Shown: positions 1 through 64,000, numbered from the stretch's first letter. The stretch is 64,000 nt of DNA from Candidatus Woesearchaeota archaeon (GCA_016845225.1 JAERTB010000016.1:13923-77922); one strand, 5' to 3'. Program-made: numbers and translations. The notes: generated by a model from the letters alone, not told the origin.

Positions 1-372
1 ATTTTTTTCTATTTTTACAACTTCTTTTTTTACTTCTTTTTCAACTTCTTTTCCAGAAATAGTTGGTTTCTTTTTTAATCTCATAAAAGAAAATAGTTTA
101 CTTATGAGCGTAAATTTTACTTCTTTTTCAACTTCAATTGGCCTCTGTTTTTCTTTATCATAGTAGGTCCATTCTAAGTCCTCATCTTTAGATTTTTTAG
201 TTTTCTTTTCTAGTTTTTTAATACTTGAAATTTCAAAGACAGAGAATCCAACCAGCATAACACCAATAGTTGCCGCAAATATGGCATAAACACTATTAGT
301 ATTTAGAAAATAGACTGAAGAAATAGTTGATATGATTCCTACTGTCAACAGAACGTAAAATAACCCCTTCAT
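1..372 (-). CDS. Hypothetical membrane protein with Lys/Glu-rich tail, partial (5' end at 372, runs off window start)
   Basis: Manual reverse-complement translation from ATG at 372 reads MKGLFYVLLTVGIISTISSVYFLNTNSVYAIFAATIGVMLVGFSVFEISSIKKLEKKTKK...KEVEKEVKKEVVKIEKN with no stop before position 1. It has one or two TM helices followed by a K/E-rich low-complexity region. It is not in the ORF track, presumably because it is incomplete. Confidence 0.35.
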   Translation of the reverse strand, partial: MKGLFYVLLTVGIISTISSVYFLNTNSVYAIFAATIGVMLVGFSVFEISSIKKLEKKTKKSKDEDLEWTYYDKEKQRPIEVEKEVKFTLISKLFSFMRLKKKPTISGKEVEKEVKKEVVKIEKN

Positions 373-432
373 CCTAATATTACACTCTCAAAATTATTTA
401 TAAACTGTTTGATAATCATAAAAATGCCAATT

Positions 433-1500
433 TTACTGTTCATAGTAAACTTTTAGATCATATGCACTTGTTTCTAAATTAGGATAAACAATATCATAAA
501 CTGGGGGACTCATAAACCCTTTTCTGTGATTAAGTGTATCTCCTCTAAGTTTAATTTTCATTTCAACTCTAGATTCTCCTAATAGGGCATTGGATTCTGA
601 ATATCCATAATAACCAGTTTCAAAAGTATTTCCCATTGTTATATCTGGAAGTATAATCGCTAACCCTTTAGTGGTTTTTTCACTTGTTGGATTACTCGCA
701 AGAACCAACCAATTAAATCCAATTGTTCTATTATTCACTCCGTAGGTTCCCCACGAACTACTACTCACATGCTGACGATACATAGTAGTCAGTGGGTTAG
801 TATAACTAATCATATCATCAAATTCAAGTTCTTTAGTTAATGTTTGAGCACTTCCTTTAGTTTCAAAATTGATAGTTACACAATTAGCAGGAGTTCCACA
901 ATTTGCACCAGGAATTCCTCCACTCAATTCTTCAACCTCAAAAGGAAACATATTGCCGTAAACATAAGTAAAATTAATTTCTTCAGTATTTGTAATATTA
1001 AATCCATTTAAGTAAATCATATTATACGGATGAGAAACATATTCTATATACATATTTGGAGAATTTTTTAAATAATATCTAGAAGATTTAACTTGGCCAG
1101 CATCACTTAATATCAAGTCACTCTCTCCAAAAAGAGGAAAATTACTAAAATTAACATAGCCTTGTTCATTTAATCGACTATTAAAAATATTCAATTGTTT
1201 TCTTATCTCGTTTTTTTCAATTAAACTTTCATCAGCAAATAAAGCATCAATAATGATGCTATCATTTGAAAAAGAAATATCGAATGAATCTTTTCCAAGA
1301 GCGTCATTCATTTTGCTAATGCTTTTAGAAATGGATTTGTCCAAATTATAAAATCTTTCACTTTCAATAAACTCTTTAATTCTATTTTCTGAAGTTTCAG
1401 AATTATTCAAAATAACTCCTGCAAAAGAAAGTACAGTCAAACTAACAAAAACTAAACCCAGCGTCAATAAAATTCCTTTTTTTGATTTCATTGAAGCCAT
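433..1500 (-). CDS. Class III signal peptide (archaeal type IV pilin-like) protein, 355 aa; large extracellular domain, possible pilus adhesin
   Basis: The N-terminus MASMKSKKG|ILLTLGLVFVSLTVL has the basic-Gly cleavage motif followed by a hydrophobic helix. It is the last gene of six tightly overlapping pilin-like genes on the same strand. Confidence 0.55.
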   Translation of the reverse strand: MASMKSKKGILLTLGLVFVSLTVLSFAGVILNNSETSENRIKEFIESERFYNLDKSISKSISKMNDALGKDSFDISFSNDSIIIDALFADESLIEKNEIRKQLNIFNSRLNEQGYVNFSNFPLFGESDLILSDAGQVKSSRYYLKNSPNMYIEYVSHPYNMIYLNGFNITNTEEINFTYVYGNMFPFEVEELSGGIPGANCGTPANCVTINFETKGSAQTLTKELEFDDMISYTNPLTTMYRQHVSSSSWGTYGVNNRTIGFNWLVLASNPTSEKTTKGLAIILPDITMGNTFETGYYGYSESNALLGESRVEMKIKLRGDTLNHRKGFMSPPVYDIVYPNLETSAYDLKVYYEQ

Positions 1501-2267
1501 ATTCTAAACCTCGCCTTATGCATTCCTTCAAAATATTCTCTAGAATCGTCATCAAAACCTGCATACCATCTTTCTCCGGATCCAATAAACTGGTCGTCAG
1601 GAATTTCTGCTTCAGTTCTTGTGGAGATAGTATATGCCGGATCGTCTAAAACCTTCAACCAATTAACTTGGAAGTTATTTGTTCCGTCAGCTATAACGTT
1701 TAATAAGCTAACTCCTGTAGTAAATGGTACTGGAACAGTTGTAGTGTAAGTACAATCTACATCATTTATGCCTTTAGAAGCACAAATTGAAGTCATAGAG
1801 TATTGAGTTCCTCCAAGACCAATTCCTAATGAGGGAGTTCTAGATGGAGCATTTGTTATTTTAGCATTAACTTGCACATGTAAATTCCCTCCACTAACTA
1901 AAGAGAGAGTATTAATTGAAGTTTTAAGGTTCGAACTACTAAGTGCACAATCTCCTCCACTACAAACATTTCTTGCACCATCATGGAAATCAATACTCAT
2001 GTTGTATCCTGAAGGTAAAAAATCATAAACATTAATATCTGCAAAATTTTCATTTCTTAAAGCATCATCTAACTGTCCACTTTCATCAAACATTGAAATC
2101 ACATCATAACCTCTTTTAATGACCTGAGTTTGTGAAAGGGACTCTCTTGACGTGCTAGTAAAATAGTATGTAGTATTTACAAGCATAATTAGAATAACTG
2201 TTGCTGCAATAGCTCCATCTAAGGCAAAGATTATTCCTTTCTTTTTTCTTAATGGTCTAAGGTTCAT
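1488..2267 (-). CDS. Class III signal peptide (archaeal type IV pilin-like) protein, 259 aa
   Basis: The N-terminus MNLRPLRKKKG|IIFALDGAIAATVILIMLV is a prepilin-type signal. It overlaps its neighbours by 13 and 4 nt, which indicates an operon. Confidence 0.6.
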   Translation of the reverse strand: MNLRPLRKKKGIIFALDGAIAATVILIMLVNTTYYFTSTSRESLSQTQVIKRGYDVISMFDESGQLDDALRNENFADINVYDFLPSGYNMSIDFHDGARNVCSGGDCALSSSNLKTSINTLSLVSGGNLHVQVNAKITNAPSRTPSLGIGLGGTQYSMTSICASKGINDVDCTYTTTVPVPFTTGVSLLNVIADGTNNFQVNWLKVLDDPAYTISTRTEAEIPDDQFIGSGERWYAGFDDDSREYFEGMHKARFRIWLQ

Positions 2268-2824
2268 TGACTAAGTAACACCTCAACAGTCCCATAAACA
2301 TAAGCTGCTCCAGGAGTAGGTTCATACATAACATCTCTTGCAAGATTAACTGAGAATTTTCCTCCTCCACTCATTTTTCCAACTGAAAAAACAACATCAC
2401 TATTCGCATCTTTAATTCTTAAACCAAAATCATATTGGCCTGCATGAAATACTTCCTTTATCTCATCTTCCCCAAAAGCCACGAGGGCAGTAATTTTATC
2501 ATAAGGGATTTTATATTCCTCATCAATTATTCCTATGAAATCAATAGCATCAGAATTAGCTCCTTGTTCTAAAACCAAATAGTCCCAATTATCCGGACTT
2601 CCTGGAGTCTTTAACAACATATCAGATACTTGAAAAGTTTTAACCACAATATCGTCATGATCCATTCGGTTAATTAATCTAATATGGTAAAGGTTCCAAA
2701 GAACAGAAGTAATTGTAATCAACACAATAAATATTCCAATAGCTACAAATAAATCTGTTATTGCGGCCTGTCCTTTTTTTCTTTTGTACATATTAATAAT
2801 CTCCAACAATATAATATTCCACAT
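2264..2824 (-). CDS. Class III signal peptide (archaeal type IV pilin-like) protein, 186 aa
   Basis: The N-terminus MYKRKKGQ|AAITDLFVAIGIFIVLITITSV is a canonical K-G-Q motif plus hydrophobic segment of archaeal prepilins. Confidence 0.65.
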   Translation of the reverse strand: MWNIILLEIINMYKRKKGQAAITDLFVAIGIFIVLITITSVLWNLYHIRLINRMDHDDIVVKTFQVSDMLLKTPGSPDNWDYLVLEQGANSDAIDFIGIIDEEYKIPYDKITALVAFGEDEIKEVFHAGQYDFGLRIKDANSDVVFSVGKMSGGGKFSVNLARDVMYEPTPGAAYVYGTVEVLLSQ

Positions 2825-3503
2825 CTAAAACTTTAACATTAGATTCTAAGTTTATACTTTCAACACTAGTTTTTGCTTGAACTGTGTGTTCTCCAAAAGA
2901 ACTAAACGCTCCAGTAAATTGTAACTCCTCTTCATTAACAAACACAGTTATAACTTCTTCAAAATCTAAATAAATTTTAGTATTTTCATCAAAATATTTT
3001 CCAATAACTACAAAATCAACCTCTTCATTTTCAATAGTTGGCATCCCACCTTGACCTATTGCAGGCACAGGGATTTTAGCAGGGTTGGGATTAACTGTTA
3101 AAATTTCTGGAGCATTGCCAAAGAAAAGTCCATCAGTTGTTTTGATTATCTGAATAATTCCTTCACCTGCACTATCGTCTTCTACAGTTGGCAGTATAGG
3201 CACAGTAATTTCATCTCCCCCAGGAGTTTCAACAGATATTTCATTTTCCACTATTTGATAATCATAATCAGAAGTCACCTTCAATGAGTTTCCAATCCCT
3301 AAATTAGAAACAGTAAATAAAGCATTGGATAATTCAACAGCAGTTTGTACTCTACTTTCAACACCCATTCTTTCATTAAGGTTGTTCATCATAGTCCCAA
3401 TTAGGGGAATAGTTACAATTAACACAAGTCCAACTATTATCAAAACTTCTATTGATCCTCCTTGTCCTTTTTTATTAAATAACACTTTATGAAATTGCCG
3501 CAA
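2793..3503 (-). CDS. Class III signal peptide (archaeal type IV pilin-like) protein, 236 aa
   Basis: The N-terminus ...LFNKKGQGGSIEVLIIVGLVLIVTIPLIG is prepilin-like, and the gene overlaps its neighbours. Confidence 0.6.
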   Translation of the reverse strand: MRQFHKVLFNKKGQGGSIEVLIIVGLVLIVTIPLIGTMMNNLNERMGVESRVQTAVELSNALFTVSNLGIGNSLKVTSDYDYQIVENEISVETPGGDEITVPILPTVEDDSAGEGIIQIIKTTDGLFFGNAPEILTVNPNPAKIPVPAIGQGGMPTIENEEVDFVVIGKYFDENTKIYLDFEEVITVFVNEEELQFTGAFSSFGEHTVQAKTSVESINLESNVKVLDVEYYIVGDY

Positions 3504-3903
3504 TACTCAAGACTCCTTCATTATTACTCACTGTAAACTCCTCACCCATTAAAACATAATTTGCCTTATCAAGGACACCATTAAAAGAACAAATAATTTC
3601 AATTTCACTAGGTCCTCCATCCATCCTGTCTCCCAAAATAATTAATCCAGAGTTTAAAATATTTAATTTATGGCGTGTCTTAAACCAAGATTCATAACCA
3701 TCTCCTAATGTAGCAACTCTTTCCAATGCATTGGACACCATAACACAATCATTTTTCTTTTGTACAGTTTCCCTAGTTCTTTCAACATCTAATTTTTTTG
3801 TGAAAGTTACAGAACTAAGCATAATAAATATCAATAATAAAACACCGACAGAATACATAATCTCGATACTTATCTGGCCTTTTTTTCTCAAATTCATTAC
3901 CAT
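3487..3903 (-). CDS. Class III signal peptide (archaeal type IV pilin-like) protein, 138 aa
   Basis: The N-terminus MVMNLRKKGQ|ISIEIMYSVGVLLLIFIML is prepilin-like. Confidence 0.6.
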   Translation of the reverse strand: MVMNLRKKGQISIEIMYSVGVLLLIFIMLSSVTFTKKLDVERTRETVQKKNDCVMVSNALERVATLGDGYESWFKTRHKLNILNSGLIILGDRMDGGPSEIEIICSFNGVLDKANYVLMGEEFTVSNNEGVLSIAAIS

Positions 3904-4319
3904 GATATGTCCACCGCACTTTCATTTACACTCTTAACCTTAAGATGGTAAGTTCCAGAGTCAGAAGGAATTGTTCCATAAATTAGAGGTTTAACTCCTG
4001 CATGAATATCTGAAATTCCTCCTGCAAATTCAATCTGTAATAAAATCTCACTTGCACCTGTCGCCACATCATTAACCAACGCAGCAGTCTTAATTCCCTT
4101 AGGAGCAGTAATCACCACAATTTCCATAGAATCTGGGCCCATGGAATGAACAGCATCTACGGCTTTAGACAACCTACTAACATAACTTTCCAATTGGCTA
4201 TCTCTAATTGCATTATTAGTTTCAACAGTGGAATAATGCACTAAAGGAATAAGAAAAAATAATAGAAGTCCAGTTAGGATAACATATTCTATTCCTGCCT
4301 GTCCTCTTTTTTTCACCAT
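3897..4319 (-). CDS. Class III signal peptide (archaeal type IV pilin-like) protein, 140 aa; first gene of pilin operon
   Basis: The N-terminus MVKKRGQ|AGIEYVILTGLLLFFLIPLV is a textbook archaeal prepilin signal. An AT-rich promoter region lies upstream at 4320-4430. Confidence 0.65.
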   Translation of the reverse strand: MVKKRGQAGIEYVILTGLLLFFLIPLVHYSTVETNNAIRDSQLESYVSRLSKAVDAVHSMGPDSMEIVVITAPKGIKTAALVNDVATGASEILLQIEFAGGISDIHAGVKPLIYGTIPSDSGTYHLKVKSVNESAVDISW

Positions 4320-4472
4320 CTCTTCTAATTTGTAATTAAATCTATAAAAGTTTTTTCTTAATAAATAACCTTTAAATTTTAACAGTTTAAGCGTTTTTCT
4401 CTTAAATTAAATTAATAGAAAATAATATAAGTGTCCTACATTTCTTATTTCAAAACTATGGAGGTGTTTTTA

Positions 4473-4628
4473 ATGAAATGCGATTGTCCAAAATGGTGTA
4501 ATTGGTTACTTCTAATTGCAGGTATACTATATGTTGCTGGAGATTTAGGCTATGGTCCTGGTCTTTGGGGAATTAACGTATGGCATTTCCTTGTATTATT
4601 ATGGGGAATAGTTAAAGTAGCTAAATAA
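4473..4628 (+). CDS. Small membrane protein (51 aa) with CDCPKWC motif
   Basis: The start is ATG at 4473, preceded by GGAGGTG six nt upstream (Shine-Dalgarno-like). The sequence MKCDCPKWCNWLLLIAGILYVAGDLGYGPGLWGINVWHFLVLLWGIVKVAK has one or two TM helices. It is followed by a hairpin plus T-run terminator. The ORF track gives a longer version from 4431. Confidence 0.4.
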   Translation: MKCDCPKWCNWLLLIAGILYVAGDLGYGPGLWGINVWHFLVLLWGIVKVAK

Positions 4629-5378: not shown

Positions 5379-7052
5379 TTACATTTCTTCAGGAGCTTTA
5401 ATTCCCAATAAATTCAAACCAGAATCAATAACAATCCTAACATTATCTACCAATAAAATTCTTAGTTTCAACAATTCTTCTTCACTACCAATTATTTTAT
5501 GTTTTGCATAGAAACTATTAAACAATCCACATAAATCTAACAAATATCTTGCAATAACCGAAGGTTTATACTGTTTTGCAGCCTGATCAATCACATTTTC
5601 AAAATTTCCAAGATGTTTAATTAACTTTAATTCTTCTTCACTAGTGATCTTATTCCATTTCAATCCTGTTTTTTTAATTTTAATTTCTGATTTTTTAAGA
5701 ACAGAACAACATCTTGCATGGGTATATTGTACGTAAGGTCCACTCTCTCCCTCAAAATTTAAAATTCTATCCCAGTCAAACTCAACATCCTTAACTCTAT
5801 CACTACTAAGATCTCCAAAGATTATTGCTCCAATTCCTACCATCTTTGCAACTTCGTCTTTATTTTTTAGTTTTGGATTCTTTTCAGAGATTATTTTTTT
5901 TGCAAGTTCAATTCCTTTATCTAAAACATCTTCTAAAAATATAATATTTCCTTTTCTTGTAGACATTCCTAAGAAGTGTCCGAAGTCCACGTGTTCAAAC
6001 TTAGACTCGTCATGACCCATTTTACCTAAAACACTAAAAAGTTGCTTAAAATGCAGTTTTTGTGGCGCTCCAACTATGTATAGTAACTTATCTGCTTTGT
6101 ATTTCTTTAATCTGTAAAGTGCAGCTGCCAAATCCCTCGTATGGTAAGTAGATGATCCATTACTTTTCTTTAACATAAAAGGAGGCATCTTTTCTAATTC
6201 AACAACTAATGCCTCGTCACTTATTTCAGTTTTAACTTTTTTCTCAAGTGCTTTAATTGCAGCATCCATCTTATCATTATAGAAAGATTCTCCGTCATTA
6301 GAATCAAACTTAATATTTAATTCAGCATAATACTCTTCAAATTCTTTCAATGAAAGTTCTTTGAACATTTCCCAAATGCCTAGGCTTTTTTTATTTCCAT
6401 TTTCTAATTTTTTGAATTCTTCTCTTGCTTCTTCATCCAAATCTGGATTTATTTTTGCTTCATCATGAAATTTAACATAAATGTCTAATAAATGTTTAAT
6501 TGGGTCTTTTTTTAATTTCTTTTCTTCTCCCCAGTTTTCATAAGCGACAATTAGTTTTCCAAACTGAGTTCCCCAATCCCCTAGATGATTAACCCCTATA
6601 CAATTATATCCTCTAAATTTTAATATTCTATAAATTGAATTTCCAATAACTGTACTTCTCAAGTGTCCAATCCCAAAAGGTTTTGCAATATTTGGAGAAG
6701 AATAATCCATCACAACAGTTTTTCCTTTACCTTCATTTGCAGATCCATAACACTCTTTACTTTTACTTATTTCACTAAGTACATTTTGTACAACATTTTC
6801 AGACTTAATAAAAAAGTTAAGATAGGCTCCTTTAGTTTCAATTTTTTCAATAAAATCTAATTTAATTTCTTTAGAAAGTTCTTTAGCAAGTTCATTTGGT
6901 TTCTTTCCACTTTTTGAAGCAAATTTAAAGCAAGGAAATGCATAATCTCCTAAAGAATACTCTGGTGGAACTTCTAAAGCTTCAACTACTTCTTTTTTAG
7001 TTACCTTAAGACTCTTTGAAACAGTCTTTGCAATCTCATCTCCAAAATTCAT
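5379..7052 (-). CDS. argS: Arginine--tRNA ligase
   Basis: A class I aaRS with SSPNIAKPFGIGHLRS (the HIGH-equivalent region of ArgS) and GMSTRKG (KMSKS-like). The 557-aa length is typical of ArgS. Confidence 0.9.
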   Translation of the reverse strand: MNFGDEIAKTVSKSLKVTKKEVVEALEVPPEYSLGDYAFPCFKFASKSGKKPNELAKELSKEIKLDFIEKIETKGAYLNFFIKSENVVQNVLSEISKSKECYGSANEGKGKTVVMDYSSPNIAKPFGIGHLRSTVIGNSIYRILKFRGYNCIGVNHLGDWGTQFGKLIVAYENWGEEKKLKKDPIKHLLDIYVKFHDEAKINPDLDEEAREEFKKLENGNKKSLGIWEMFKELSLKEFEEYYAELNIKFDSNDGESFYNDKMDAAIKALEKKVKTEISDEALVVELEKMPPFMLKKSNGSSTYHTRDLAAALYRLKKYKADKLLYIVGAPQKLHFKQLFSVLGKMGHDESKFEHVDFGHFLGMSTRKGNIIFLEDVLDKGIELAKKIISEKNPKLKNKDEVAKMVGIGAIIFGDLSSDRVKDVEFDWDRILNFEGESGPYVQYTHARCCSVLKKSEIKIKKTGLKWNKITSEEELKLIKHLGNFENVIDQAAKQYKPSVIARYLLDLCGLFNSFYAKHKIIGSEEELLKLRILLVDNVRIVIDSGLNLLGIKAPEEM

Positions 7053-7092
7053 AAAAAAAGGTTCACAGAATTAGGTTATATAGTTTTCTGAA

Positions 7093-7911
7093 TTAGTTCA
7101 AAACTGAGATAGCTGGTTTCATACTATTCCAATTTTTATCAAACATTCCTTGCATTGCAGAAGCAAAATAAGGGGTTTGCACCCATACTCCTACATCATA
7201 AGTAGGATGAACTTCTTCATCATTCATAACCATAAACATTAAATCTTTATTGTCTACTATACAAAATCTTGATTTAACATCTGCAGTATGCCTGACTTCT
7301 GCAACCTTTGAAACACTACTAATTGATTTTTCAGCATCTTTTGTTACGGGGGCAGCAATTCTAATTTCAACACCTTTCTTTTTTAATCTATTAAATTCAG
7401 GTTTTAATGCTTCTATTTTTCTCATAACTCCTTTAGATGAAGTCATAATCACTACAGATTTTTCTGCTTCCTTAACCATTGCTTCAAGATGTGTGTAAAT
7501 ATTATGTCTTCCCCTTAGTGCACCAGCAAGATCGCTAGGTTCTACAAAATCAACTCCTTGGTTGTGCAATGCATCTAATTCTTCAAGAACTTCTCCACCC
7601 TTAAGGTTATCAAGTCTTTTTATTCTGTCAACAGTTTCATTGCTAACATATTTTTTAACTTTTTCAATAACTCCTTTTGGTTCAATTGCTAAATACTTGA
7701 TAGGTTTACCAAGTTTCATAATAATAAATCCTTTTTTTTCTAGTGATTCTAGAACATCATACGCTCTTGATCTTGGAACATCTCCAATATCACTAAGTTC
7801 ACCAGCAGTAGAAACTCCACGAGAAAGAAGTGCAGTCCATATTTTTGCTTCATATAAGTTAAGTCCAAATAGGCTTCTTATTTTACTTAAAAATTCTTCT
7901 TTGACAATCAT
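7093..7911 (-). CDS. TrmB-family transcriptional regulator
   Basis: The N-terminal winged HTH YEAKIWTALLSRGVSTAGELSDIGDVPRSRAYDVLESLEKKGFI matches the TrmB N-terminal domain, and there is a C-terminal sensor-like domain. Confidence 0.7.
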   Translation of the reverse strand: MIVKEEFLSKIRSLFGLNLYEAKIWTALLSRGVSTAGELSDIGDVPRSRAYDVLESLEKKGFIIMKLGKPIKYLAIEPKGVIEKVKKYVSNETVDRIKRLDNLKGGEVLEELDALHNQGVDFVEPSDLAGALRGRHNIYTHLEAMVKEAEKSVVIMTSSKGVMRKIEALKPEFNRLKKKGVEIRIAAPVTKDAEKSISSVSKVAEVRHTADVKSRFCIVDNKDLMFMVMNDEEVHPTYDVGVWVQTPYFASAMQGMFDKNWNSMKPAISVLN

Positions 7912-47957: not shown

Positions 47958-48722
47958 ATGAATCTATTAAATAAAATATTGGCGGCTTCAGCCATAACTT
48001 TGGGCTCCTGTACATCAATGGAGAGTAATTCAAAATTCGACCCTTTAGCAGATAATTCTCCAAATTATATTTTACAAACTAATGAATATCTTACTAAAAC
48101 AGAAAATGAAATTTTAGATAATGCTGATAAAAATAGAGTTATGATGTTCGGAGAAGACCATAATAATCAAAAAGATGATGCATTTTTCAAATATATGCTA
48201 CCTAAATTAAAAGAAAAAGGATATGCTCGTTTAGGAATAGAATTAGATAGAGAAAGAGATAATGGAAGTTTAGAAGATTATATTTCAGAAAGTTCCACCC
48301 AATCAGAATTTTTAGGAAATCTTCAAGCATCTCTAAACTATTTTGGAGACAATCATATTGATATCATAAATAAAGCAAAGGAGAACAACATAGATGTTTT
48401 TTTTTATGACTCAACACCTCAAAAACAAAAAGAAATATTTTCAAATGAAAGAGAAGTTAATTCTTTAAAAAATATTATTGATGAAGGTCTTTTAGATGAT
48501 CCAAATTCTAAGTTTTTAATTTATTGTGGAGGCATACATATAATTGAAAAATCTTTCAAAGAAGATGGAGAAATAAAAGCCAAGTTAGGAAAATTATTAA
48601 ACCATTACACTGAAGGCAAAACCTATTCAATTGCAATCGGAGATTTTTTTAATTCAACTGAATATTCTGATATTGTTGTAGATTTAGAAAAGATTAATTT
48701 CCTGAACCCAGTCCAACCATAA
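47958..48722 (+). CDS. Lipoprotein-like secreted protein of the ChaN/TraB/Tiki (GumN) superfamily
   Basis: Signal plus LGSC lipobox-like N-terminus; VMMFGEDHNNQKDD (GExH motif) and YCGGIHI (GxxH) resemble ChaN/Tiki-family motifs. Confidence 0.45.
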   Translation: MNLLNKILAASAITLGSCTSMESNSKFDPLADNSPNYILQTNEYLTKTENEILDNADKNRVMMFGEDHNNQKDDAFFKYMLPKLKEKGYARLGIELDRERDNGSLEDYISESSTQSEFLGNLQASLNYFGDNHIDIINKAKENNIDVFFYDSTPQKQKEIFSNEREVNSLKNIIDEGLLDDPNSKFLIYCGGIHIIEKSFKEDGEIKAKLGKLLNHYTEGKTYSIAIGDFFNSTEYSDIVVDLEKINFLNPVQP

Positions 48723-50376
48723 GGAATGCCCCATCAGGCAAATAGGCTGATTCTTCTGGAGTAGTTCCCTCTCCAGTATATGTGTTAGCAATTCCTACTG
48801 TTGCTGTGATTTTCATGTTTCCAAGTTCATACAAACAAGCCTGAATACTAGCGTCATAAGTAACTGCTGGATCTCCCGTAGTAGTTACTAATCCTTGGGC
48901 AGCTAATTGAAATCTCGGATCAAATGGTAAATCGGTTTCCATCGTTTGCAACATAAATCCTGCACCGTAGGTGTGATACTCATCATTTTCATTCGAAGCA
49001 CTTAACCCAAATAAATTATTACCTGCCCCTGCAAGAGAGGTACTAACATGAGTAGATATTGGTAAACTTAAATCCGTCCAAGGAATATTAATGTTTTCCC
49101 AAAGACCATAAGTCATCCCAGTAGTATAAAGTCCTTCTCCATTCCCTGGTTTAAACCCATAATTCAAACCAATTTTGCTAGGATATCTCATATTCAATGT
49201 TGTGGCTGCCCAATCTTTAGCAGCGTCAGGATAACTAGCTGCAAACTCATTTAATTGACTATAAAGTTGTGTGCATTCTGTATTTTGACTTCCTCCATTA
49301 AATCCTCCAAAAGGTGAACCGATTTCTCCGCTACTACTTTCAATGCAACTATCTCCAAATTTTTTACCAAAACAATCGGGATCATATCCTGGCCCCTTTA
49401 CAATGGCACAACTTTGAGATACACATTCAAGATGTGTAATGTCTTCAAGATTTCCTACTGCAGTGGGGTTTCCTCCACTTTCTTTACAGTCCTGATTTGA
49501 ATCGCAGTCTCCGCCTGAACCACCAGGAATACAAATGTTTCCCAAGCATCCAAGTTCACAATCTTCCGGTTTATCGCACGCAACGCCACTAGTTACAGTT
49601 TTATCGCAAGCTAATTCTCCGCTGCAATATGTAATCTCAACAAGAGGGATAGGATCTTGATTGCTCCCTCCGGGGCGCCCAGTTCCAGTATGCCCTTGAA
49701 TTCCAGTAATGCTATTAGTTTGTTTTGCCAACCAAGGATTAGTGATTATTAAACTTTCACCAAAAAATTCATATTCTATGAATCGAATTTCTACTGCTAC
49801 ACTTAAATGTCCTTTTTCAGTTAATTCATTATTACCCTGAAGGGTTCCTTGTGAAACTGCCATAGGCGCCATCATTTTTTTAGGAGAAGAAGTTTCACTA
49901 TAAACATAATAAACTACTTGTTGAAGGTTGTTTTTTTCTTTTGCAATATATATCTTGCCAGCTTTATAATGGTTTAAGGCAGTAATTATAAAATTTTCAG
50001 GATTATGTTGATATAACTCAGTTTTAACATATTCTATCATGTGCCCATAACTCTCAGTGATCTGTTCAAAAGAAAATTCAACTACCTCTCCATCACTAAG
50101 TTGATAACTTCTTAAATCACCATACGGAAATAAATTATAATTATAACCCTCAAGTTCTTTTTCCTTATTCAAACATTTTTTTATTAAAGGGATTTCCATA
50201 GCTTTCTCAACTTCTCCAGTTCCATCGGGAATCATTGTAATTTTTTTACTCAAACTAAAGCATTTATTTTTTTCAAATCCAAAAGCATTTCCACTGATTA
50301 TCCCTTCAAAATTAGCAGACATAAATGATGCTAAAAGGATTATACTCACTAAAATCCACAACCCTCTTTTTTCCAT
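48694..50376 (-). CDS. Secreted Cys-rich protein (560 aa), unknown function
   Basis: It has signal peptide MEKRGLWILVSIILLASFMSA. A central module has about 20 Cys (CDKTVTSGVACDKPEDCELGCLGNICIPGG...DCDSNQDCKESGG). It is visibly GC-richer. It shows a 29-nt convergent overlap with 47958..48722. Confidence 0.5.
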   Translation of the reverse strand: MEKRGLWILVSIILLASFMSANFEGIISGNAFGFEKNKCFSLSKKITMIPDGTGEVEKAMEIPLIKKCLNKEKELEGYNYNLFPYGDLRSYQLSDGEVVEFSFEQITESYGHMIEYVKTELYQHNPENFIITALNHYKAGKIYIAKEKNNLQQVVYYVYSETSSPKKMMAPMAVSQGTLQGNNELTEKGHLSVAVEIRFIEYEFFGESLIITNPWLAKQTNSITGIQGHTGTGRPGGSNQDPIPLVEITYCSGELACDKTVTSGVACDKPEDCELGCLGNICIPGGSGGDCDSNQDCKESGGNPTAVGNLEDITHLECVSQSCAIVKGPGYDPDCFGKKFGDSCIESSSGEIGSPFGGFNGGSQNTECTQLYSQLNEFAASYPDAAKDWAATTLNMRYPSKIGLNYGFKPGNGEGLYTTGMTYGLWENINIPWTDLSLPISTHVSTSLAGAGNNLFGLSASNENDEYHTYGAGFMLQTMETDLPFDPRFQLAAQGLVTTTGDPAVTYDASIQACLYELGNMKITATVGIANTYTGEGTTPEESAYLPDGAFLMVGLGSGN

Positions 50377-55863: not shown

Positions 55864-56451
55864 TCAAAGGTAATTCTTTCTTTCCATTCTTTCTCTTATT
55901 TGTTTAATAGTTACACAAACATAAGTGCGAGACTTATCCAAAACATCTGCAATATCTATATTTTTATAACCTAAAAGTTTCATATCTAATGTCAATAGTT
56001 TAGAAGGATTTAAACCATAAACCAAATCGTCTAAAGTTTCTTTAGCACACATAACATCAAATCCTGAGGGTGTTTTAAAATCTTCCAATACATAGGCTGA
56101 TTGTTCTGGGTTAAATTCTTCAGAATTTATGTTTGTAGAGTAAGTTTGAGGTTTATTTTCTAATCTCATGTATTTAGTCAAAACATCTCTGATTCCAAAA
56201 TCAATATGCATTCCTGCAAATTTTCTAAATGTTAGTCCTCTATCCTCTTCATATTTTCTTGCAGCTTTAAGCAATCCATCAATTGCCCCATCATAAAATT
56301 CTTCATCAGAAATTTTATAGAATCTGCGACCATATCTTTGAGAAATAGTTTCTGCCAAATTTAATAAATAATCTTTATCATTTTCAATTATTTCTTTTTC
56401 ATCACTAGTAAGGACCCTATTGCCTATTCTTTCCATATACATTTTAAACAA
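55864..56451 (-). CDS. Sigma-70-family-like protein (region 2 plus region 4 HTH), 195 aa
   Basis: DGAIDGLLKAARKYEEDRGLTFRKFAGMHIDFGIRDVL aligns by eye with sigma region 2.2-2.4 (EGNIGLMKAVEKFD..RG.KFSTYA..WI...I). The C-terminal LTLDMKLLGYKNIDIADVLDKSRTYVCVTIKQIRERM fits a region-4-like HTH pattern. Confidence 0.5.
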   Translation of the reverse strand: MFKMYMERIGNRVLTSDEKEIIENDKDYLLNLAETISQRYGRRFYKISDEEFYDGAIDGLLKAARKYEEDRGLTFRKFAGMHIDFGIRDVLTKYMRLENKPQTYSTNINSEEFNPEQSAYVLEDFKTPSGFDVMCAKETLDDLVYGLNPSKLLTLDMKLLGYKNIDIADVLDKSRTYVCVTIKQIRERMERKNYL

Positions 56452-57041: not shown

Positions 57042-57641
57042 ATGAAAAAGGGGCAGGTATATCTTTTAGCAGTAATTATTATGGGATTTCTAATCTACAC
57101 AATGTTACTTCCAGTTAATTTTCTAAAAACTTCAGAAATAGATGACGATTTTCAAGAAATTTCAAAGAATTATCAATTAGAAAGTGCAAAACTTCTAAAT
57201 GAATTATTAAACACTCAAAACTTAAATCAAGATTTTGTTGAAGGAAGGTTTCTTAATTTCACTGTAGCATTTACATCTTACTCCAAATCAAAAAATCCTA
57301 ACTTCGGATTAGTTTATGCATTTCCTTTCAACAATAAAGTATTTTTAGGAAATTACGCAGATTCTCCATTAAATTATACTCAAACAGATCAAATACAAGG
57401 ATGTTTGTCAGATGTAACTGCAGCAATATCTTTATTGGGTATAGATGTATCCTCTCCAGACATAGATGTGGGCACCTATACCGATTGCATGACTTCAATA
57501 ACCTACCCTTTAAATGACAAGTTAGATTTAATCTTGGACAACTCAGAATATTCATTCACACTTTCAGATTCAACTTCAAACTTAATAATAATTAACAAAG
57601 AAAGCATTGAAGGAGATGTTAAAATCTTCATAAGTGAATAA
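57042..57641 (+). CDS. Class III signal peptide (pilin-like) protein, 199 aa
   Basis: The N-terminus MKKGQ|VYLLAVIIMGFLIYTMLLPV is prepilin-like. Confidence 0.55.
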   Translation: MKKGQVYLLAVIIMGFLIYTMLLPVNFLKTSEIDDDFQEISKNYQLESAKLLNELLNTQNLNQDFVEGRFLNFTVAFTSYSKSKNPNFGLVYAFPFNNKVFLGNYADSPLNYTQTDQIQGCLSDVTAAISLLGIDVSSPDIDVGTYTDCMTSITYPLNDKLDLILDNSEYSFTLSDSTSNLIIINKESIEGDVKIFISE

Positions 57642-58119
57642 AAAAACTAATAAACAAAATAAAACACTAAATAACATGCAAAAAAACAAAAGAGGAGTTT
57701 CACCAGCAATAAGTTGGATATTGTTAATAGGATTTACAATGGCTTTAGCAGGTTTTTCAATGACTTGGATGAGAGAAACAGCATCATCAACTTCTGAAAA
57801 AATGGTAGATAATGTGGGTTCTGATTTAGAATGTGGAGATGTTTCAATAAATGCATACGAAGAAACTTCAACAACAACAGGTTGTTCAAAAGTAAACATC
57901 ATCAACAGAGGTTTTTTCACAGTCACTGGTGTAAAAGTTAGATCCGGAAGTGGATTAGAAGAAATTACTCAAGAAATAAAACCAACACAAGAAGCATTAA
58001 TAAATCCAACAATAAGTAGTTTTTTACCAAATAATGAAATAGGAATCATTCCACAAATATCTTATAAAGATTCAAATCTAGTTTGTATAAATAAAGAGGT
58101 TAGAATAAAATGCACATAA
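57634..58119 (+). CDS. Archaeal type IV pilin (Pilin_N-type N-terminus)
   Basis: QKNKRG|VSPAISWILLIGFTMALAGFSMTW matches the archaeal pilin/flagellin N-terminal domain. The true start is probably the internal MQKNKRG at about 57676. Confidence 0.65.
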   Translation: MNKKTNKQNKTLNNMQKNKRGVSPAISWILLIGFTMALAGFSMTWMRETASSTSEKMVDNVGSDLECGDVSINAYEETSTTTGCSKVNIINRGFFTVTGVKVRSGSGLEEITQEIKPTQEALINPTISSFLPNNEIGIIPQISYKDSNLVCINKEVRIKCT

Positions 58120-58568
58120 CTAAAAAGGGAGTTTCACCATTAATCGCAACAAGTATTCTAATTGGTTTCGCAGTAGTTATTACTACTATAGTAATCCTTT
58201 TTGGAGGAGAACTAATTGAAGAGATTCAGCAAAAACAAGGGAAAACATTAACAAAAACAATTCAGTGCGATAACATGCATTTCAAAGTTACAGATATTAT
58301 TAACGATGATATTTGGTTATTGAATGATGGAACTACAGATATTCACGCATTTATGTTAAGATACAAAGGAGATGATGCAGAATATGTAAATTCCCATCTA
58401 AAAACCACAATCCCTGCAGGAGGATCAGGAAAAATAACTGCTGCAACTCCTCCAGGAATAGGAAAATTAAACACATTAACAATTTTTGCTAAAAGTGCGG
58501 CAGGGCCAGAAGGAAGCATTATTTGGGGCACATGCGGGTCTACAGAAACATCTGTAAACTTTCCATAA
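58110..58568 (+). CDS. Archaeal type IV pilin
   Basis: The N-terminus MHITKKG|VSPLIATSILIGFAVVITTIV is pilin-type. Confidence 0.7.
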   Translation: MHITKKGVSPLIATSILIGFAVVITTIVILFGGELIEEIQQKQGKTLTKTIQCDNMHFKVTDIINDDIWLLNDGTTDIHAFMLRYKGDDAEYVNSHLKTTIPAGGSGKITAATPPGIGKLNTLTIFAKSAAGPEGSIIWGTCGSTETSVNFP

Positions 58569-58619
58569 CAGTAAACTTTAATAATAACAAATAGTAAAAA
58601 TTAAACGAGGTAATTAACA

Positions 58620-59084
58620 ATGATTAAAAACAAAAGAGGAATTTCACCATTAATCGCAACAGTTCTATTAATTGGATTCGCAGTAGCTCTAGCAGCTGTA
58701 GTAATGACATGGGGCCTAGACTTCATTAAATCAACAGCAGACACAACAGAGCAACAAACTGAAAACACTTTAATTTGTGCAACTGAACTTTCTTTTGCAA
58801 TATCTAACGTAGATCTTATCACAGGAACAGTTACAGTAGATAATCGTGGACAAGTAGATATTAACAGTTTAGCATTTAGGGTTTATAATGCATCAGGCGT
58901 AACAACTAATGTAACTACAGAAACAATTGCAAAGTTTGAAGTTAAAACTTTAACTCCTACAATTACTGGTTCAAATTTAATAGGTTCAGACGTAACAAAG
59001 GTTGAAGCAATTGCAACAGTTCCAGGAAGTTCTGGACAAGGTGACATAATCTGTTCCCAAAATTTGCAATCATATCAAATTTAA
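58620..59084 (+). CDS. Archaeal type IV pilin
   Basis: The N-terminus MIKNKRG|ISPLIATVLLIGFAVALAAVVMTWG is pilin-type. It is a paralogue of the 58110 gene. Confidence 0.7.
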   Translation: MIKNKRGISPLIATVLLIGFAVALAAVVMTWGLDFIKSTADTTEQQTENTLICATELSFAISNVDLITGTVTVDNRGQVDINSLAFRVYNASGVTTNVTTETIAKFEVKTLTPTITGSNLIGSDVTKVEAIATVPGSSGQGDIICSQNLQSYQI

Positions 59085-59126
59085 GTTTAATGGAGTAATC
59101 ACTCCATTTTTTCTTTTTATTTTAAC

Positions 59127-59663
59127 ATGACTATTAATTCCAAAGAAAAGCAAGGCCAAATATGGATTTCTGCAATTCTATTTTTATCAATTGGAGTTAT
59201 GATTATTGTATTAATACTTTCAGCAATTATGCCAGTAGTAGATAGATTAGCAGATAGAAACACTCTTTCCTCAACAAAGAATCTTTTACTAGAAATGGAT
59301 GAAACAATTAAAACAGTTGCAAGAGAAGGGCCAGGCAGTCAAAGAAACTTAGATATCACTCTAAACAAAGGAGAATTATACTTCCAAAATGATACCTATC
59401 AAATTAAATGGATCATGGAAACAGAGTCAGAAATAATGGAAAAAGGAATAGATATTCCTGAAGGAAACATAGTGCAACATCTAAATGCTACAAGAGTGGA
59501 TCAAATATCAAACCTAATGCTTTGGATAACCTCAAATAAATACAACACCTCAATCAATTCACAATTTTCCAATCCTTTTACTGGCAAACACACATTAACA
59601 GTAAAACATACAGGAATAATACACCCTAACGACAATCCATTAATTGAATTAAAAATAACTTAA
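59127..59663 (+). CDS. Pilin-like / minor pilin protein
   Basis: The N-terminus KEKQGQ|IWISAILFLSIGVMIIVLILSAIMPV is prepilin-like. Confidence 0.5.
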   Translation: MTINSKEKQGQIWISAILFLSIGVMIIVLILSAIMPVVDRLADRNTLSSTKNLLLEMDETIKTVAREGPGSQRNLDITLNKGELYFQNDTYQIKWIMETESEIMEKGIDIPEGNIVQHLNATRVDQISNLMLWITSNKYNTSINSQFSNPFTGKHTLTVKHTGIIHPNDNPLIELKIT

Positions 59664-59719
59664 TGAGAAACTATTAAAAAAGCCAAAACACAGTATATAA
59701 TTATCAAAAATAGAGGTGT

Positions 59720-61309: not shown

Positions 61310-61314
61310 TCAAG

Positions 61315-61497
61315 ATGTCTTTAGAATCAATAAAACAAAATGCTCAAAGCATAATCTCTGCAAATGAAAAATACTCTCAATTAGTTTTAAAGCCAACACA
61401 TGATAAAAAAGAAGCAGAAAAATTAAAAAAATACATCTTAACACTATCTAACACAATTTCTAAACAGTTAGGGGAAGTAAAGAAAGATGTCGATTAG
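61315..61497 (+). CDS. Small coiled-coil protein between ATPase and platform genes
   Basis: A 60-aa ORF that overlaps the next start by 11 nt. It has no recognisable domain. Confidence 0.3.
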   Translation: MSLESIKQNAQSIISANEKYSQLVLKPTHDKKEAEKLKKYILTLSNTISKQLGEVKKDVD

Positions 61498-62773: not shown

Positions 62774-62774
62774 A

Positions 62775-63635: not shown

Positions 63636-64000
63636 TTTTAAACAAAAAAGGAATTGGATACGTGGATTGGATTATCAGTATGGGATTATTCATCGTGGTA
63701 GTTTCAATGACATTCATATTTCTTAAACCAGGAGTTACTGCAGAGTTTGAATCTAAAGATCTTTTAGAAATAGTAGAATCTAATTTCCTCGAAGAATATA
63801 CATGGTCTTCAATAAGTATTCCAATTGCAGTACATAAGTTGAATCAAGCAGGAATAGTTTCAAAAATTGAAATAACTGAAAATACTGGAAATCAATGGGA
63901 TGTTAAATCTTATCATTCTAAACATACAACTTTCGCAGTAACCACTAACACACAAACAAACACTGCAACAATAACTTGTAGTCCAGAAGGAGGAATCTGT
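63633..64000 (+). CDS. Class III signal peptide (pilin-like) protein, partial (runs off window end)
   Basis: The N-terminus MILNKKG|IGYVDWIISMGLFIVVVSMTFIFL is prepilin-like. No stop occurs before 64000. Confidence 0.4.

What the first reader, a model, noticed from the sequence alone, without database searches (positions are those of the whole stretch)
433..4319. Second, machinery-less operon of six overlapping class III signal-peptide (pilin-like) genes, including two large putative adhesins
Six co-directional genes overlap by 4-32 nt. All begin with [KR]-G-(Q) plus a hydrophobic helix (KRGQAGIEY, KKGQISIE, KKGQGGSIE, KKGQAAITDL, KKKGIIFALDG, KKGILLTLG). Sizes rise from 138 aa to 355 aa toward the distal end, suggesting major or minor pilins plus tip or adhesin subunits. 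There is no ATPase or platform gene nearby. These substrates would have to be serviced by the 59.7-63.6 kb machinery or one elsewhere. That arrangement is typical of modular surface-structure toolkits in DPANN-type archaea.
Basis: partly seen in the sequence, partly recalled or inferred. Interest (0 to 1): 0.5.

Follow-up and report, generated by a model that had tools for sequence, protein, structure and literature searches.

The report
Pilin genes beside their own machinery
The six overlapping genes do encode pilin-like proteins of a marine Woesearchaeota (DPANN) archaeon, but they are not orphans: their own pilus-assembly motor lies immediately downstream, just past the edge of the window, so this is an ordinary though poorly annotated archaeal type IV pilus locus.

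Summary
The six minus-strand genes at 433-4319 are real. Gene order is conserved in more than 12 Woesearchaeota loci. Each keeps a class III-type N-terminus: a basic leader of 6-11 aa ending in G or A, then about 20 hydrophobic residues. g1-g4 have Gln at +1. g1-g2, and g3 in most orthologues, have Glu at +5.

g1 belongs to a large family. 24 of 56 distant members match Pfam Class_IIIsignal. AlphaFold gives g1 a confident pilin-like shape (pLDDT 95.8). g2 and g3 are paralogues of g1. g4-g6 are lineage-specific.

The 'machinery-less' claim comes from where the window ends. An identical contig and all relatives continue with a 340-aa membrane protein, a T2SSE ATPase, two single-domain T2SSF platform genes and a KaiC-like ATPase. 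A conserved TATA box precedes g1, and another precedes the machinery genes.

No prepilin peptidase lies in the window. No adhesin domain was detected in g5 or g6. Such DPANN 'dark-matter pilin' islands next to TadB/TadC/ATPase genes, some with KaiC, are already described.

Verdict: a new member of a known kind (an archaeal Epd/Tad-like type IV filament locus), of modest interest.

The parts
4341..4356 (-). Putative archaeal promoter of the pilin operon: an A-rich BRE-like stretch (4351-4356) plus the TATA box TTTATAGA (4341-4348), 21 nt upstream of the g1 ATG
   Evidence: Read from the sequence. The same (A/G)CTTTTATAGATTT-type element sits at the same distance in L002, L004, L009 and L010, with TATA-like variants in L006 and L008. 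Promoter function is inferred.
3897..4319 (-). g1, 140 aa: prepilin-like protein with leader MVKKRG|QAGIEY (Gln+1, Glu+5, Tyr+6). It is the most conserved of the six and a candidate core or major subunit.
3487..3903 (-). g2, 138 aa: prepilin-like paralogue of g1 with leader ...RKKG|QISIE (Gln+1, Glu+5) and two invariant Cys
   Evidence: hhalign against the g1 family gives 96% probability over 67 columns, including the LG(D/P)G motif.
2793..3485 (-). g3, about 230 aa from GTG 3485 (longest ORF 236 aa from TTG 3503): prepilin-like paralogue of g1 with leader MLFNKKG|QGGSIE and a fast-evolving C-terminal part
   Evidence: hhalign against the g1 family gives 98% probability over 85 columns. Identity among orthologues is 26-36%.
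2264..2791 (-). g4, 175 aa from ATG 2791 (longest ORF 186 aa from 2824): class III-like protein with leader MYKRKKG|QAAITDL (Gln+1, Asp+6)
   Evidence: Only the N-terminus resembles the g1 family. No Pfam hit.
1488..2267 (-). g5, 259 aa: class III-like protein with leader ...KKKG|IIFALDGAIA. It is lineage-specific and has 4 Cys in the mature part (2 of them invariant across orthologues).
   Evidence: A profile search finds only 29 clusters, all unnamed or Woesearchaeota/Nanoarchaeota hypothetical proteins with no Pfam domain. There is a subthreshold DUF7288 hit.
433..1500 (-). g6, 355 aa: class III-like protein with leader ...KSKKG|ILLTLG. It is the largest and, with g3, the most divergent. 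It carries 6 N-glycosylation sequons.
   Evidence: (only 8 clusters among 5.8 billion). The AlphaFold model is of low confidence: helix 6-69 plus a beta-rich body.
394..424 (-). Intergenic signals between g6 and the machinery genes: a T5 run (420-424) and the TATA box TTTATAAATAA (394-404), about 22 nt before the next ATG. This is a putative terminator and internal promoter.
   Evidence: Sequence. A TTTATAAA core (CAGTTTATAAATAA-like in most) is present in all 7 loci compared. Function is inferred.
1..372 (-). 5' part (124 codons) of a 340-aa membrane protein ('mem340'), the first gene of the assembly-machinery unit. It is cut by the window edge.
   Evidence: The full gene is on the identical contig L001 at 6869-7891, followed by a T2SSE ATPase gene. 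It is conserved upstream of the ATPase in all relatives.

Best explanation
The six genes are the dedicated pilin set of a complete archaeal type IV filament locus with Epd/Tad-like organisation, in a marine Candidatus Woesearchaeota (DPANN) genome.

Shown:
- There are six tightly packed, syntenically conserved genes. Each product starts with a basic leader ending in Gly or Ala, followed by a hydrophobic helix.
- g1-g3 are paralogues of one large pilin-like family. This family carries the Gln+1/Glu+5(/Tyr+6) signature of EppA/TadV-type substrates.
- Directly downstream lie a membrane protein, a T2SSE ATPase, two single-domain T2SSF platform proteins and a single-domain KaiC-like ATPase.

Inferred:
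- The pilin operon is transcribed from its own TATA box, and the machinery genes from a second TATA box in the g6-mem340 spacer.
- The six preproteins insert into the membrane through the N-terminal helix. A prepilin peptidase encoded elsewhere removes the 6-11 aa leader after the conserved Gly or Ala.
- The adjacent ATPase and split platform polymerise the subunits into a surface filament.
- g1 is the most conserved, so with g2 and g3 it probably forms the core or shaft. g4-g6 are lineage-specific and larger, and probably act as minor, priming or tip subunits.
- g3 and g6 evolve fastest and are probably the exposed, partner-contacting parts.
- The KaiC-like ATPase probably modulates the motor, as FlaH and TadZ do in related systems.
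- The likely role is attachment to surfaces or host cells. DNA or nutrient uptake is also possible.
For: - ORFs and motifs are present. The motifs are conserved across 7-13 loci while the mature parts diverge.
- The identical contig extends into the machinery genes.
- The 11-gene cluster is conserved in Woesearchaeota.
- Domain hits: T2SSE, T2SSF twice, and KaiC at 1.6e-52.
- The two platform proteins map to the N- and C-terminal halves of FlaJ.
- The g1 family has 969 relatives, and 24 of 56 sampled hit Class_IIIsignal. One relative is named UPF0333 by its source.
- g2 and g3 are homologous to g1 beyond the signal peptide.
- g1-like modules are fused to vWA, MG2 or Ig domains in other proteins, as in modular pilins.
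- TATA boxes are conserved.
- Literature: Gln+1/Glu+5 are hallmarks of EppA substrates (PMC3875500). A split platform plus a FlaH-like ATPase defines Epd-like systems (PMC6668835). DPANN dark-matter pilins next to TadB/TadC are described (PMC6393860).
Against: - None of the six window proteins reaches a Pfam or NCBIfam threshold on its own. The best hit is PF04021 at 13.6 bits against a cut-off of 23.7.
- No prepilin peptidase lies in the 64-kb window or within 10 kb of the cluster in relatives.
- No short Flp- or EpdE-like major pilin was found. The tight coupling of six different genes leaves unclear which subunit is the major one.
- There are no expression, cleavage or filament data.
Confidence: 0.8

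Rival explanations
1. One reading: an orphan pilin operon whose products are assembled in trans by the second pilus machinery at 59.7-63.6 kb, or by one elsewhere.
For: Inside the window no ATPase or platform gene adjoins the six genes. Makarova et al. (PMC4858521) document archaeal ATPase/TadC modules that use pilins encoded in trans. The 59.7-63.6 kb locus is a bona fide T2SSE ATPase with two T2SSF genes.
Against: The identical contig and every relative carry a dedicated ATPase and two T2SSF genes 60 nt to about 1.1 kb downstream of g6, and the relatives whose contigs reach far enough also carry a KaiC-like gene. All these genes are in the same orientation, and the arrangement is conserved across loci whose g1 identity falls as low as 37%. 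The second locus has its own PilA-type pilins (KRGVSP..).
Confidence: 0.05
2. The locus builds a short pseudopilus or uptake device, analogous to the bacterial ComG or T2SS pseudopilin sets, rather than a long adhesive pilus. The six different subunits would form a piston or tip complex for DNA or nutrient import, or for secretion.
For: Six distinct pilin-like genes are tightly coupled, suggesting near-equal stoichiometry. No small high-copy major pilin was found. DPANN papers propose DNA import through pili (PMC9563170).
Against: No competence or secretion-substrate genes lie in the conserved neighbourhood. g1 is first after the promoter and the most conserved, which fits a major subunit. Relatives of g1 carry adhesion-type vWA or Ig domains.
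Confidence: 0.12
3. The locus is a divergent archaellum (motility) operon. It combines a FlaI-like ATPase, a FlaJ-like platform and a FlaH-like KaiC ATPase with N-terminally pilin-like subunits.
For: The best NCBIfam hit of the ATPase is FlaI (E 4e-83). The platform halves hit ArlJ/FlaJ. The KaiC-like protein weakly hits ArlH/FlaH.
Against: All scores are far below the equivalog cut-offs: FlaI 280 bits against 550, ArlH 42 against 215, ArlJ 31 against 550. No archaellin domain was detected in g1-g6, and no FlaF/G/C/D/E/X was detected anywhere in the cluster. The platform is split into two genes. The leaders are of the Gln+1/Glu+5 type, not archaellin type.
Confidence: 0.02
4. The N-termini are ordinary Sec signal peptides or signal anchors, and the six proteins are unrelated surface proteins that merely neighbour a pilus machinery.
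For: None of the six passes a curated pilin or signal model on its own. No peptidase was found nearby.
Against: - The conserved residues ([KR][GA], Gln+1, Glu+5) lie on the N-terminal side of the hydrophobic stretch.
- The hydrophobic helix of g1 continues unbroken to residue 60 and is followed by a beta domain in a high-confidence model.
- The family is linked to PF04021/UPF0333.
- Synteny with the machinery is strict.
Confidence: 0.03

Closest known systems
EppA-dependent (Epd) pili of Methanococcus maripaludis, i.e. Makarova clade 1 or 'Epd-like' archaeal T4P (PMC4858521, PMC3875500, PMC6668835)
   Same: - Several (at least 5) class III-signal minor-pilin-like genes of 130-300 aa.
- Leaders of 5-13 aa ending in Gly, with Gln+1 and Glu+5.
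- Membership of or relation to DUF361/PF04021.
- Two separate single-T2SSF-domain platform genes.
- A FlaH/KaiC-like secondary ATPase.
- Extra membrane proteins in the locus.
   Different: - No EppA gene in or near the locus.
- No roughly 70-aa major pilin found.
- g5 and g6 lack Gln+1/Glu+5.
- No DUF2341 adhesins and no FleN/MinD.
- Pilins and machinery are contiguous here but scattered in M. maripaludis.
- ATPase clade membership was not tested. The nearest solved ATPase is Archaeoglobus afGspE, not a Tad ATPase.
- The host is a DPANN archaeon, not a methanogen or Thermococcus.
Bacterial Tad/Flp (type IVc) pilus with TadE/TadF pseudopilins
   Same: - A split TadB/TadC-type platform and a TadA-like ATPase (TIGR03819, E 2e-50).
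- The g1 family carries G|xxxxEY, the Flp-type processing motif (my recollection of the Flp motif; Tyr+6 is mentioned in PMC3875500).
- One g1 relative weakly hits Pfam TadE.
   Different: - No secretin, TadZ, TadD/G or RcpB/C.
- g1 is a 134-aa globular pilin, not a 40-60-aa Flp.
- The secondary ATPase is KaiC-like, not TadZ.
- The cell envelope is archaeal.
DPANN 'dark-matter pilin' islands and Tad-like clusters with KaiC (Makarova et al. 2019, PMC6393860; Nanohaloarchaeota and Undinarchaeota clusters, PMC9563170)
   Same: - Runs of unannotated signal-peptide proteins next to an ATPase and TadB/TadC in DPANN genomes.
- Some clusters carry kaiC and lack a prepilin peptidase.
- Pilins go unannotated because they diverge fast.
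   Different: Those reports do not describe this six-family set with its fixed order, the g1-g3 paralogy, the mem340 partner or the two promoters. This lineage is marine Woesearchaeota.
Bacterial minor-pilin or pseudopilin operons (T2SS GspG-K, ComGC-GG, T4aP FimU-PilVWXE)
   Same: Five to six different pilin-like genes in one tightly coupled operon beside the ATPase and platform. Sizes generally increase, and the largest subunit is last. The presumed role is priming or tip formation.
   Different: No detectable sequence or fold homology to these families. The analogy is organisational only.

Membership tests
Archaeal class III signal-peptide / type IV pilin-like proteins | Short basic leader ending in Gly/Ala, immediately followed by about 20 hydrophobic residues | tested here: met
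   All six have leaders of 6-11 aa ending K/R-G, followed by a 20-residue stretch with mean Kyte-Doolittle hydropathy of 1.8-2.4. This is conserved in 7-13 orthologous loci, with G/A alternation at -1.
Archaeal class III signal-peptide / type IV pilin-like proteins | Match to a curated pilin or signal model (PF04021 Class_IIIsignal, PF07790 Pilin_N) above the gathering score | tested here: inconclusive
   For the window proteins, g1 scores 13.6 bits and g3 13.4 bits against a cut-off of 23.7; the others have no hit. However, 24 of 56 full-length distant homologues of g1 hit PF04021 at E<=0.01, best 8.6e-08. One relative is named UPF0333 by its source.
Archaeal class III signal-peptide / type IV pilin-like proteins | Pilin architecture: a long N-terminal alpha-helix followed by a beta-rich globular domain | tested here: met
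Archaeal class III signal-peptide / type IV pilin-like proteins | Genomic linkage to a T2SSE-family ATPase and T2SSF-family platform | tested here: met
   The ATPase and two T2SSF genes are co-directional and begin about 1.1 kb downstream of g6, on the identical contig and in all relatives.
Archaeal class III signal-peptide / type IV pilin-like proteins | Cognate A24-family prepilin peptidase (PibD/FlaK/EppA) in the genome, and actual cleavage after Gly | not testable with these tools
   None was found among the polytopic membrane ORFs of the window, either by a GxGD motif scan of all of them or by Pfam searches of seven of them. None lies within 10 kb of the cluster in relatives. The rest of the genome could not be read, and cleavage needs an experiment.
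Epd-like / Tad-like type IV filament systems (Denise 2019; Makarova clade 1) | Platform split into two genes, each with one T2SSF domain | tested here: met
   Proteins of 294 and 324 aa each carry one PF00482 domain. They align to the N- and C-terminal halves of ArlJ/FlaJ respectively.
Epd-like / Tad-like type IV filament systems (Denise 2019; Makarova clade 1) | Pilins with Gln at +1 and Glu at +5 (EppA-type substrates) | tested here: inconclusive
   Met by g1 and g2, and by g3 in most orthologues (Glu is at +6 in the window copy). g4 has Gln+1 but Asp+6. g5 and g6 have neither.
Epd-like / Tad-like type IV filament systems (Denise 2019; Makarova clade 1) | Secondary FlaH/KaiC-like (or TadZ-like) ATPase next to the motor genes | tested here: met
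   A 232-aa single-domain KaiC-like protein lies directly after the second platform gene. It scores PF06745 at 1.6e-52 and KaiC_arch_3 at 1e-40, below that model's cut-off.
Epd-like / Tad-like type IV filament systems (Denise 2019; Makarova clade 1) | Short (about 60-75 aa) major pilin and a dedicated EppA peptidase | tested here: not met
   No small Gln+1/Glu+5 ORF was found in the 64-kb window. No A24 peptidase lies in the window or the flanks of relatives. Either could lie elsewhere in the genome.
Epd-like / Tad-like type IV filament systems (Denise 2019; Makarova clade 1) | ATPase and platform branch inside the Epd-like/Tad clade in a phylogeny | not tested
   No reference set was available. 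Proxies are ambiguous. PDB ranking is afGspE 2e-75, then FlaI 5e-52, then CpaF 3e-45. The TadA-family model scores higher and the FlaI model lower than for the window's second ATPase.
Archaellum | Archaellin subunits plus FlaI, FlaJ and FlaH equivalogs and FlaF/G accessory genes | tested here: not met
   No archaellin or FlaF/G hit in g1-g6. Scores are FlaI 280 bits against 550, ArlJ 31 against 550 and ArlH 42 against 215.
Euryarchaeal clade 2 T4P with its own pilin set (Haloferax PilB4 type; Makarova 2016) | Signature pilin arCOG02911 and PilA-related pilins; ATPase in clade 2 | tested here: inconclusive
   arCOG models were not available. The only evidence is subthreshold hits of g5 to DUF7288 and g3 to DUF7321, about 14 bits against a cut-off of 27. 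The nearest solved ATPase is from Archaeoglobus.

The most novel reading that the evidence does not exclude
The g1 family consists of globular pilins of about 135 aa with the Flp-type G|QxxxEY processing motif. It is paired with a fissioned TadB/TadC-type platform and a KaiC/FlaH-like ATPase, and it is widespread in DPANN and other uncultured archaea. It could represent the archaeal lineage closest to the donor of the bacterial Tad system, with g1-g3 as counterparts of the TadE/TadF pseudopilins. In that case the fixed six-subunit set would be an archaeal equivalent of the bacterial minor-pilin priming or tip complex, used by Woesearchaeota to engage host cells.
Probability: 0.15. Interest if true: 0.55.

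Novelty: new member of a known kind. Interest (0 to 1): 0.3.

Why it matters
DPANN archaea are thought to live attached to hosts, yet pilins are routinely reported as missing from their pilus loci. This analysis assigns six hypothetical proteins of marine Woesearchaeota to a defined, syntenically conserved pilin set with its own promoter and its own machinery. It gives profiles that can annotate about a thousand related proteins. It also identifies the fast-evolving subunits g3 and g6 as candidates for host or surface contact. Finally, it corrects an inference caused only by where the window ended, which is useful for the scan itself.

Tried and rejected
- Pfam and NCBIfam on the six proteins gave only subthreshold hits.
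- The AFDB50 fold library was unavailable.
- Profile searches of the PDB with the g1 family and with mem340 found nothing significant.
- hhalign between g5 and g6, and between the g1 family and g4, shows only N-terminal similarity.
- A search for a prepilin peptidase among the window's polytopic membrane ORFs found MFS, MscS, DUF1385, DoxX, M50 and a LysE-like protein, but no A24 peptidase.
- A search for a small Flp- or EpdE-like major pilin in the window found none.
- The broad alignment A2 was too diverse for a genome scan, so A1 was used instead.
- The archaellum reading was rejected on curated cut-offs.
- Szabo et al. 2007 (FlaFind and EppA) was not held in the library. The EppA signature was taken from PMC3875500 instead.

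Full report
**1. Observation**

The ORF listing confirms six co-directional minus-strand ORFs:

| Gene | Coordinates | Length |
|---|---|---|
| g1 | 3897-4319 | 140 aa |
| g2 | 3487-3903 | 138 aa |
| g3 | 2793-3503 | 236 aa (TTG start) |
| g4 | 2264-2824 | 186 aa |
| g5 | 1488-2267 | 259 aa |
| g6 | 433-1500 | 355 aa |

Two starts need correcting. Orthologues and the local sequence show that g3 most likely starts at GTG 3485 (MLFNKKGQ) and g4 at ATG 2791 (MYKRKKGQ). The junctions are therefore a 7-nt overlap, a 1-nt gap, a 1-nt gap, a 4-nt overlap and a 13-nt overlap. The genes are still tightly coupled. Sizes do not rise strictly, because g4 is shorter than g3.

**2. The genes are real and the N-termini are conserved**

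The window matches Logan contig SRR13374099_51232 (L001) with 0 mismatches over 7240 nt. Orthologous clusters were recovered in two ways: from metagenome contigs (L002-L010) and from GTDB species representatives (L011-L023). Nearly all are titled Candidatus Woesearchaeota. The closest is isolate SI072_bin118, with 94% identity in g1.

Across seven loci the mature parts have diverged substantially:

| Gene | Identity to the window copy |
|---|---|
| g1 | 52-64% |
| g2 | 42-52% |
| g4 | 42-58% |
| g5 | 43-51% |
| g3 | 26-36% |
| g6 | 27-39% |

The N-terminal motifs nevertheless stay fixed:

- g1: [KR]RG|Q[AS]GIEY
- g2: [KR][GA]|Q[IV]SIE
- g3: K[GA]|Q..S[IM]E
- g4: K[GA]|QA[AV][IV]TDL
- g5: KKG|[IV]IF[AS]LDGAIA
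- g6: K[GA]|[IV][LF]LTLG

Leaders are 6-11 aa. Each is followed by 20 residues with mean hydropathy of 1.8-2.4. Six adjacent genes sharing this conserved feature cannot be chance.

**3. Are they class III (prepilin-type) signals?**

On their own the window proteins give only subthreshold Class_IIIsignal hits. g1 scores 13.6 bits and g3 13.4 bits against a cut-off of 23.7.

A profile of 19 close g1 homologues (A1) was scored against 1.84 billion representatives. It found 969 proteins at E<=1e-3 and 214 at E<=1e-10, matched over the full 140 residues. In 56 sampled members, Glu+5 is invariant and Gln+1 and Tyr+6 are nearly invariant. 24 of the 56 hit PF04021 at E<=0.01, best 8.6e-08. One is named 'UPF0333 family' by its source.

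Nair et al. (PMC3875500) give the signature of the M. maripaludis DUF361 pilins processed by EppA: leaders of 5-13 aa ending in Gly, with Gln+1 and Glu+5. g1 and g2 fit this exactly. g3 and g4 fit partly. g5 and g6 do not.

AlphaFold with the 56-sequence alignment gives g1 a pLDDT of 95.8. The model has one helix from residue 3 to 60 followed by a seven-strand beta domain. This is the pilin 'lollipop' layout, not a cleavable Sec peptide.

hhalign shows that g2 (96%, 67 columns) and g3 (98%, 85 columns) are homologous to the g1 family well beyond the signal, through a shared LGPG motif. g4 resembles it only at the N-terminus. g5 and g6 are unrelated to each other beyond the N-terminus.

g5 and g6 are restricted to this lineage. 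g5 has 29 clusters and g6 has 8, none with a Pfam domain.

In other metagenomic proteins the g1-like module sits at the N-terminus of long proteins carrying vWA, MG2 or Ig-like domains. This is the arrangement of 'modular pilins' and fits extracellular display.

**4. The operon is not machinery-less**

Window position 1 falls inside a gene that starts at 372 on the minus strand. On the identical contig this gene encodes a 340-aa membrane protein. It is followed by the 5' 318 codons of a T2SSE-type ATPase with a Walker A motif, GGTASGKTS.

In the relatives whose contigs reach far enough the order is:

g1-g6, mem340 (340-395 aa in the close relatives, up to 505 aa in more distant ones), T2SSE ATPase (about 480-500 aa), T2SSF (294 aa), T2SSF (324 aa), KaiC-like ATPase (about 230 aa).

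The same components recur in more distant Woesearchaeota: L018 and L020 co-linear, L021 and L023 with the machinery inverted. There is also a partial Micrarchaeota locus, L022.

- The two platform proteins align to the N- and C-terminal halves of FlaJ.
- The ATPase is nearest to Archaeoglobus afGspE among solved structures (2e-75), ahead of FlaI (5e-52) and CpaF (3e-45).
- The ATPase scores 280 bits on the FlaI equivalog, whose cut-off is 550.
- The KaiC-like protein hits PF06745 at 1.6e-52. It scores only 42 bits on ArlH, whose cut-off is 215.

This is therefore not an archaellum.

mem340 has two N-terminal TM helices, a Lys/Glu-rich linker, two more TM helices and a strongly conserved C-terminal domain of about 65 aa. 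That domain faintly resembles winged-helix proteins. Its role is unknown. It is a constant partner of the ATPase.

**5. Transcription signals**

The box TTTATAGA lies at 4341-4348, 21 nt before the g1 ATG. It is preceded by an A-run and is conserved in position in the relatives. This would give a leaderless or near-leaderless mRNA.

The 60-nt g6-mem340 spacer carries a T5 run and TTTATAAATAA at 394-404. The TTTATAAA core is present in all seven loci compared, 20-35 nt before the mem340 ATG.

I infer two adjacent transcription units, one for the pilins and one for the machinery. This is an inference from sequence only.

**6. What is missing**

**7. Comparison with known systems**

Makarova et al. 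2016 (PMC4858521) describe two relevant groups. Clade 1 (Epd) systems have two TadC genes, at least five minor pilins and extra membrane proteins. Clade 2 systems are often linked to KaiC-like ATPases.

Denise et al. 2019 (PMC6668835) define Epd-like systems by a fissioned platform plus a FlaH-like secondary ATPase, and derive the bacterial Tad system from them.

Makarova et al. 2019 (PMC6393860) state that in DPANN genomes runs of signal-peptide 'dark matter' genes next to the ATPase and TadB/TadC are diverse pilins. A Nanohaloarchaeota study (PMC9563170) reports DPANN Tad-like clusters with kaiC, without a prepilin peptidase and with no annotated pilins.

The present locus fits this known picture. 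What is new is the specific, fixed six-family set, its internal paralogy, the mem340 partner and the promoter layout.

**8. Mechanism and verdict**

The proposed mechanism is given under Best explanation. The six genes are the pilin set of a complete Epd/Tad-like archaeal type IV filament locus in a marine Woesearchaeote. The adhesin label is unsupported.

- Novelty: new member of a known kind.
- Interest: 0.3.
- Most novel reading not excluded: g1-type pilins and this locus type are close to the archaeal donor of the Tad system, and the six-subunit set is a minor-pilin or tip complex for host contact. I put this at about 0.15.

Noticed in passing
window 57042-64000 (+): A second, different type IV pilus locus. 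It has PilA-type pilins (KRGVSPAI, KKGVSPLIAT, KRGISPLIAT) and two KGQ-type proteins at 57042 and 59127. It also has an ATPase with a PilB3_C domain (59720-61309) and two T2SSF genes (61487-63635). A further class III-like ORF starts at 63632 and runs off the window. The 59127 protein is the only g1/g2/g3-like relative in this locus, at 21 bits to the wide g1 profile.
   Followed up: partly
window 55864-56451 (-): A 195-aa ORF sits divergently upstream of the second pilus locus and looks like a bacterial sigma-70 family protein. Pfam finds nothing, but phmmer against the PDB gives FliA (E 0.014) and RpoS (E 0.4) over sigma region 2. A sigma-like protein in an archaeal genome would be unusual. 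The evidence is weak.
   Followed up: partly
window 1-372 (-); L001 6869-7891: The membrane protein 'mem340' is always encoded just upstream of the ATPase gene and often overlaps it. Its architecture is 2 TM, a Lys/Glu-rich linker, 2 TM and a highly conserved C-terminal domain of about 65 aa that faintly resembles winged-helix proteins (PDB 2d1h, E 0.058). It has no Pfam family. It may be a motor scaffold or regulator.
   Followed up: partly
window 4431-4628 (+): A small ORF (called as 51 aa, 2 TM, with a CDCPKWC motif) lies divergently upstream of g1. An ORF of the same size and position occurs in most relatives (L002, L004, L009, L010). No Pfam hit.
   Followed up: no
proteins P0038-P0147 (metagenomic relatives of g1): The g1-like pilin module occurs as the N-terminal domain of 500-1200-aa proteins carrying vWA, MG2, Big_7 or Y_Y_Y/Big_13 domains. 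These are archaeal 'modular pilins'.
   Followed up: partly
window 48694-50376 (-): A 560-aa Cys/Gly-rich predicted secreted protein with N-terminus MEKRG|LWILVSIILLASF. It has no Pfam hit. It may be a surface protein.
   Followed up: no
L002 16858-20323 and equivalents in L004, L006: Downstream of the KaiC-like gene there is a conserved block. It has a divergent AsnC-type regulator, then an AbrB/MazE plus PhoU-domain protein (about 301 aa) and three proteins without Pfam hits (about 463, 225 and 164 aa), ending before alaS. The start of the block (AsnC, or AsnC plus the AbrB/MazE gene) is also visible at the ends of L008-L010. It is unclear whether this block belongs to the pilus system or is only syntenic.
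   Followed up: no
L004 1-2435: In one relative the DNA ligase gene upstream of the cluster carries faint intein/LAGLIDADG Pfam hits (896 aa against 558 aa in the window lineage).
   Followed up: no
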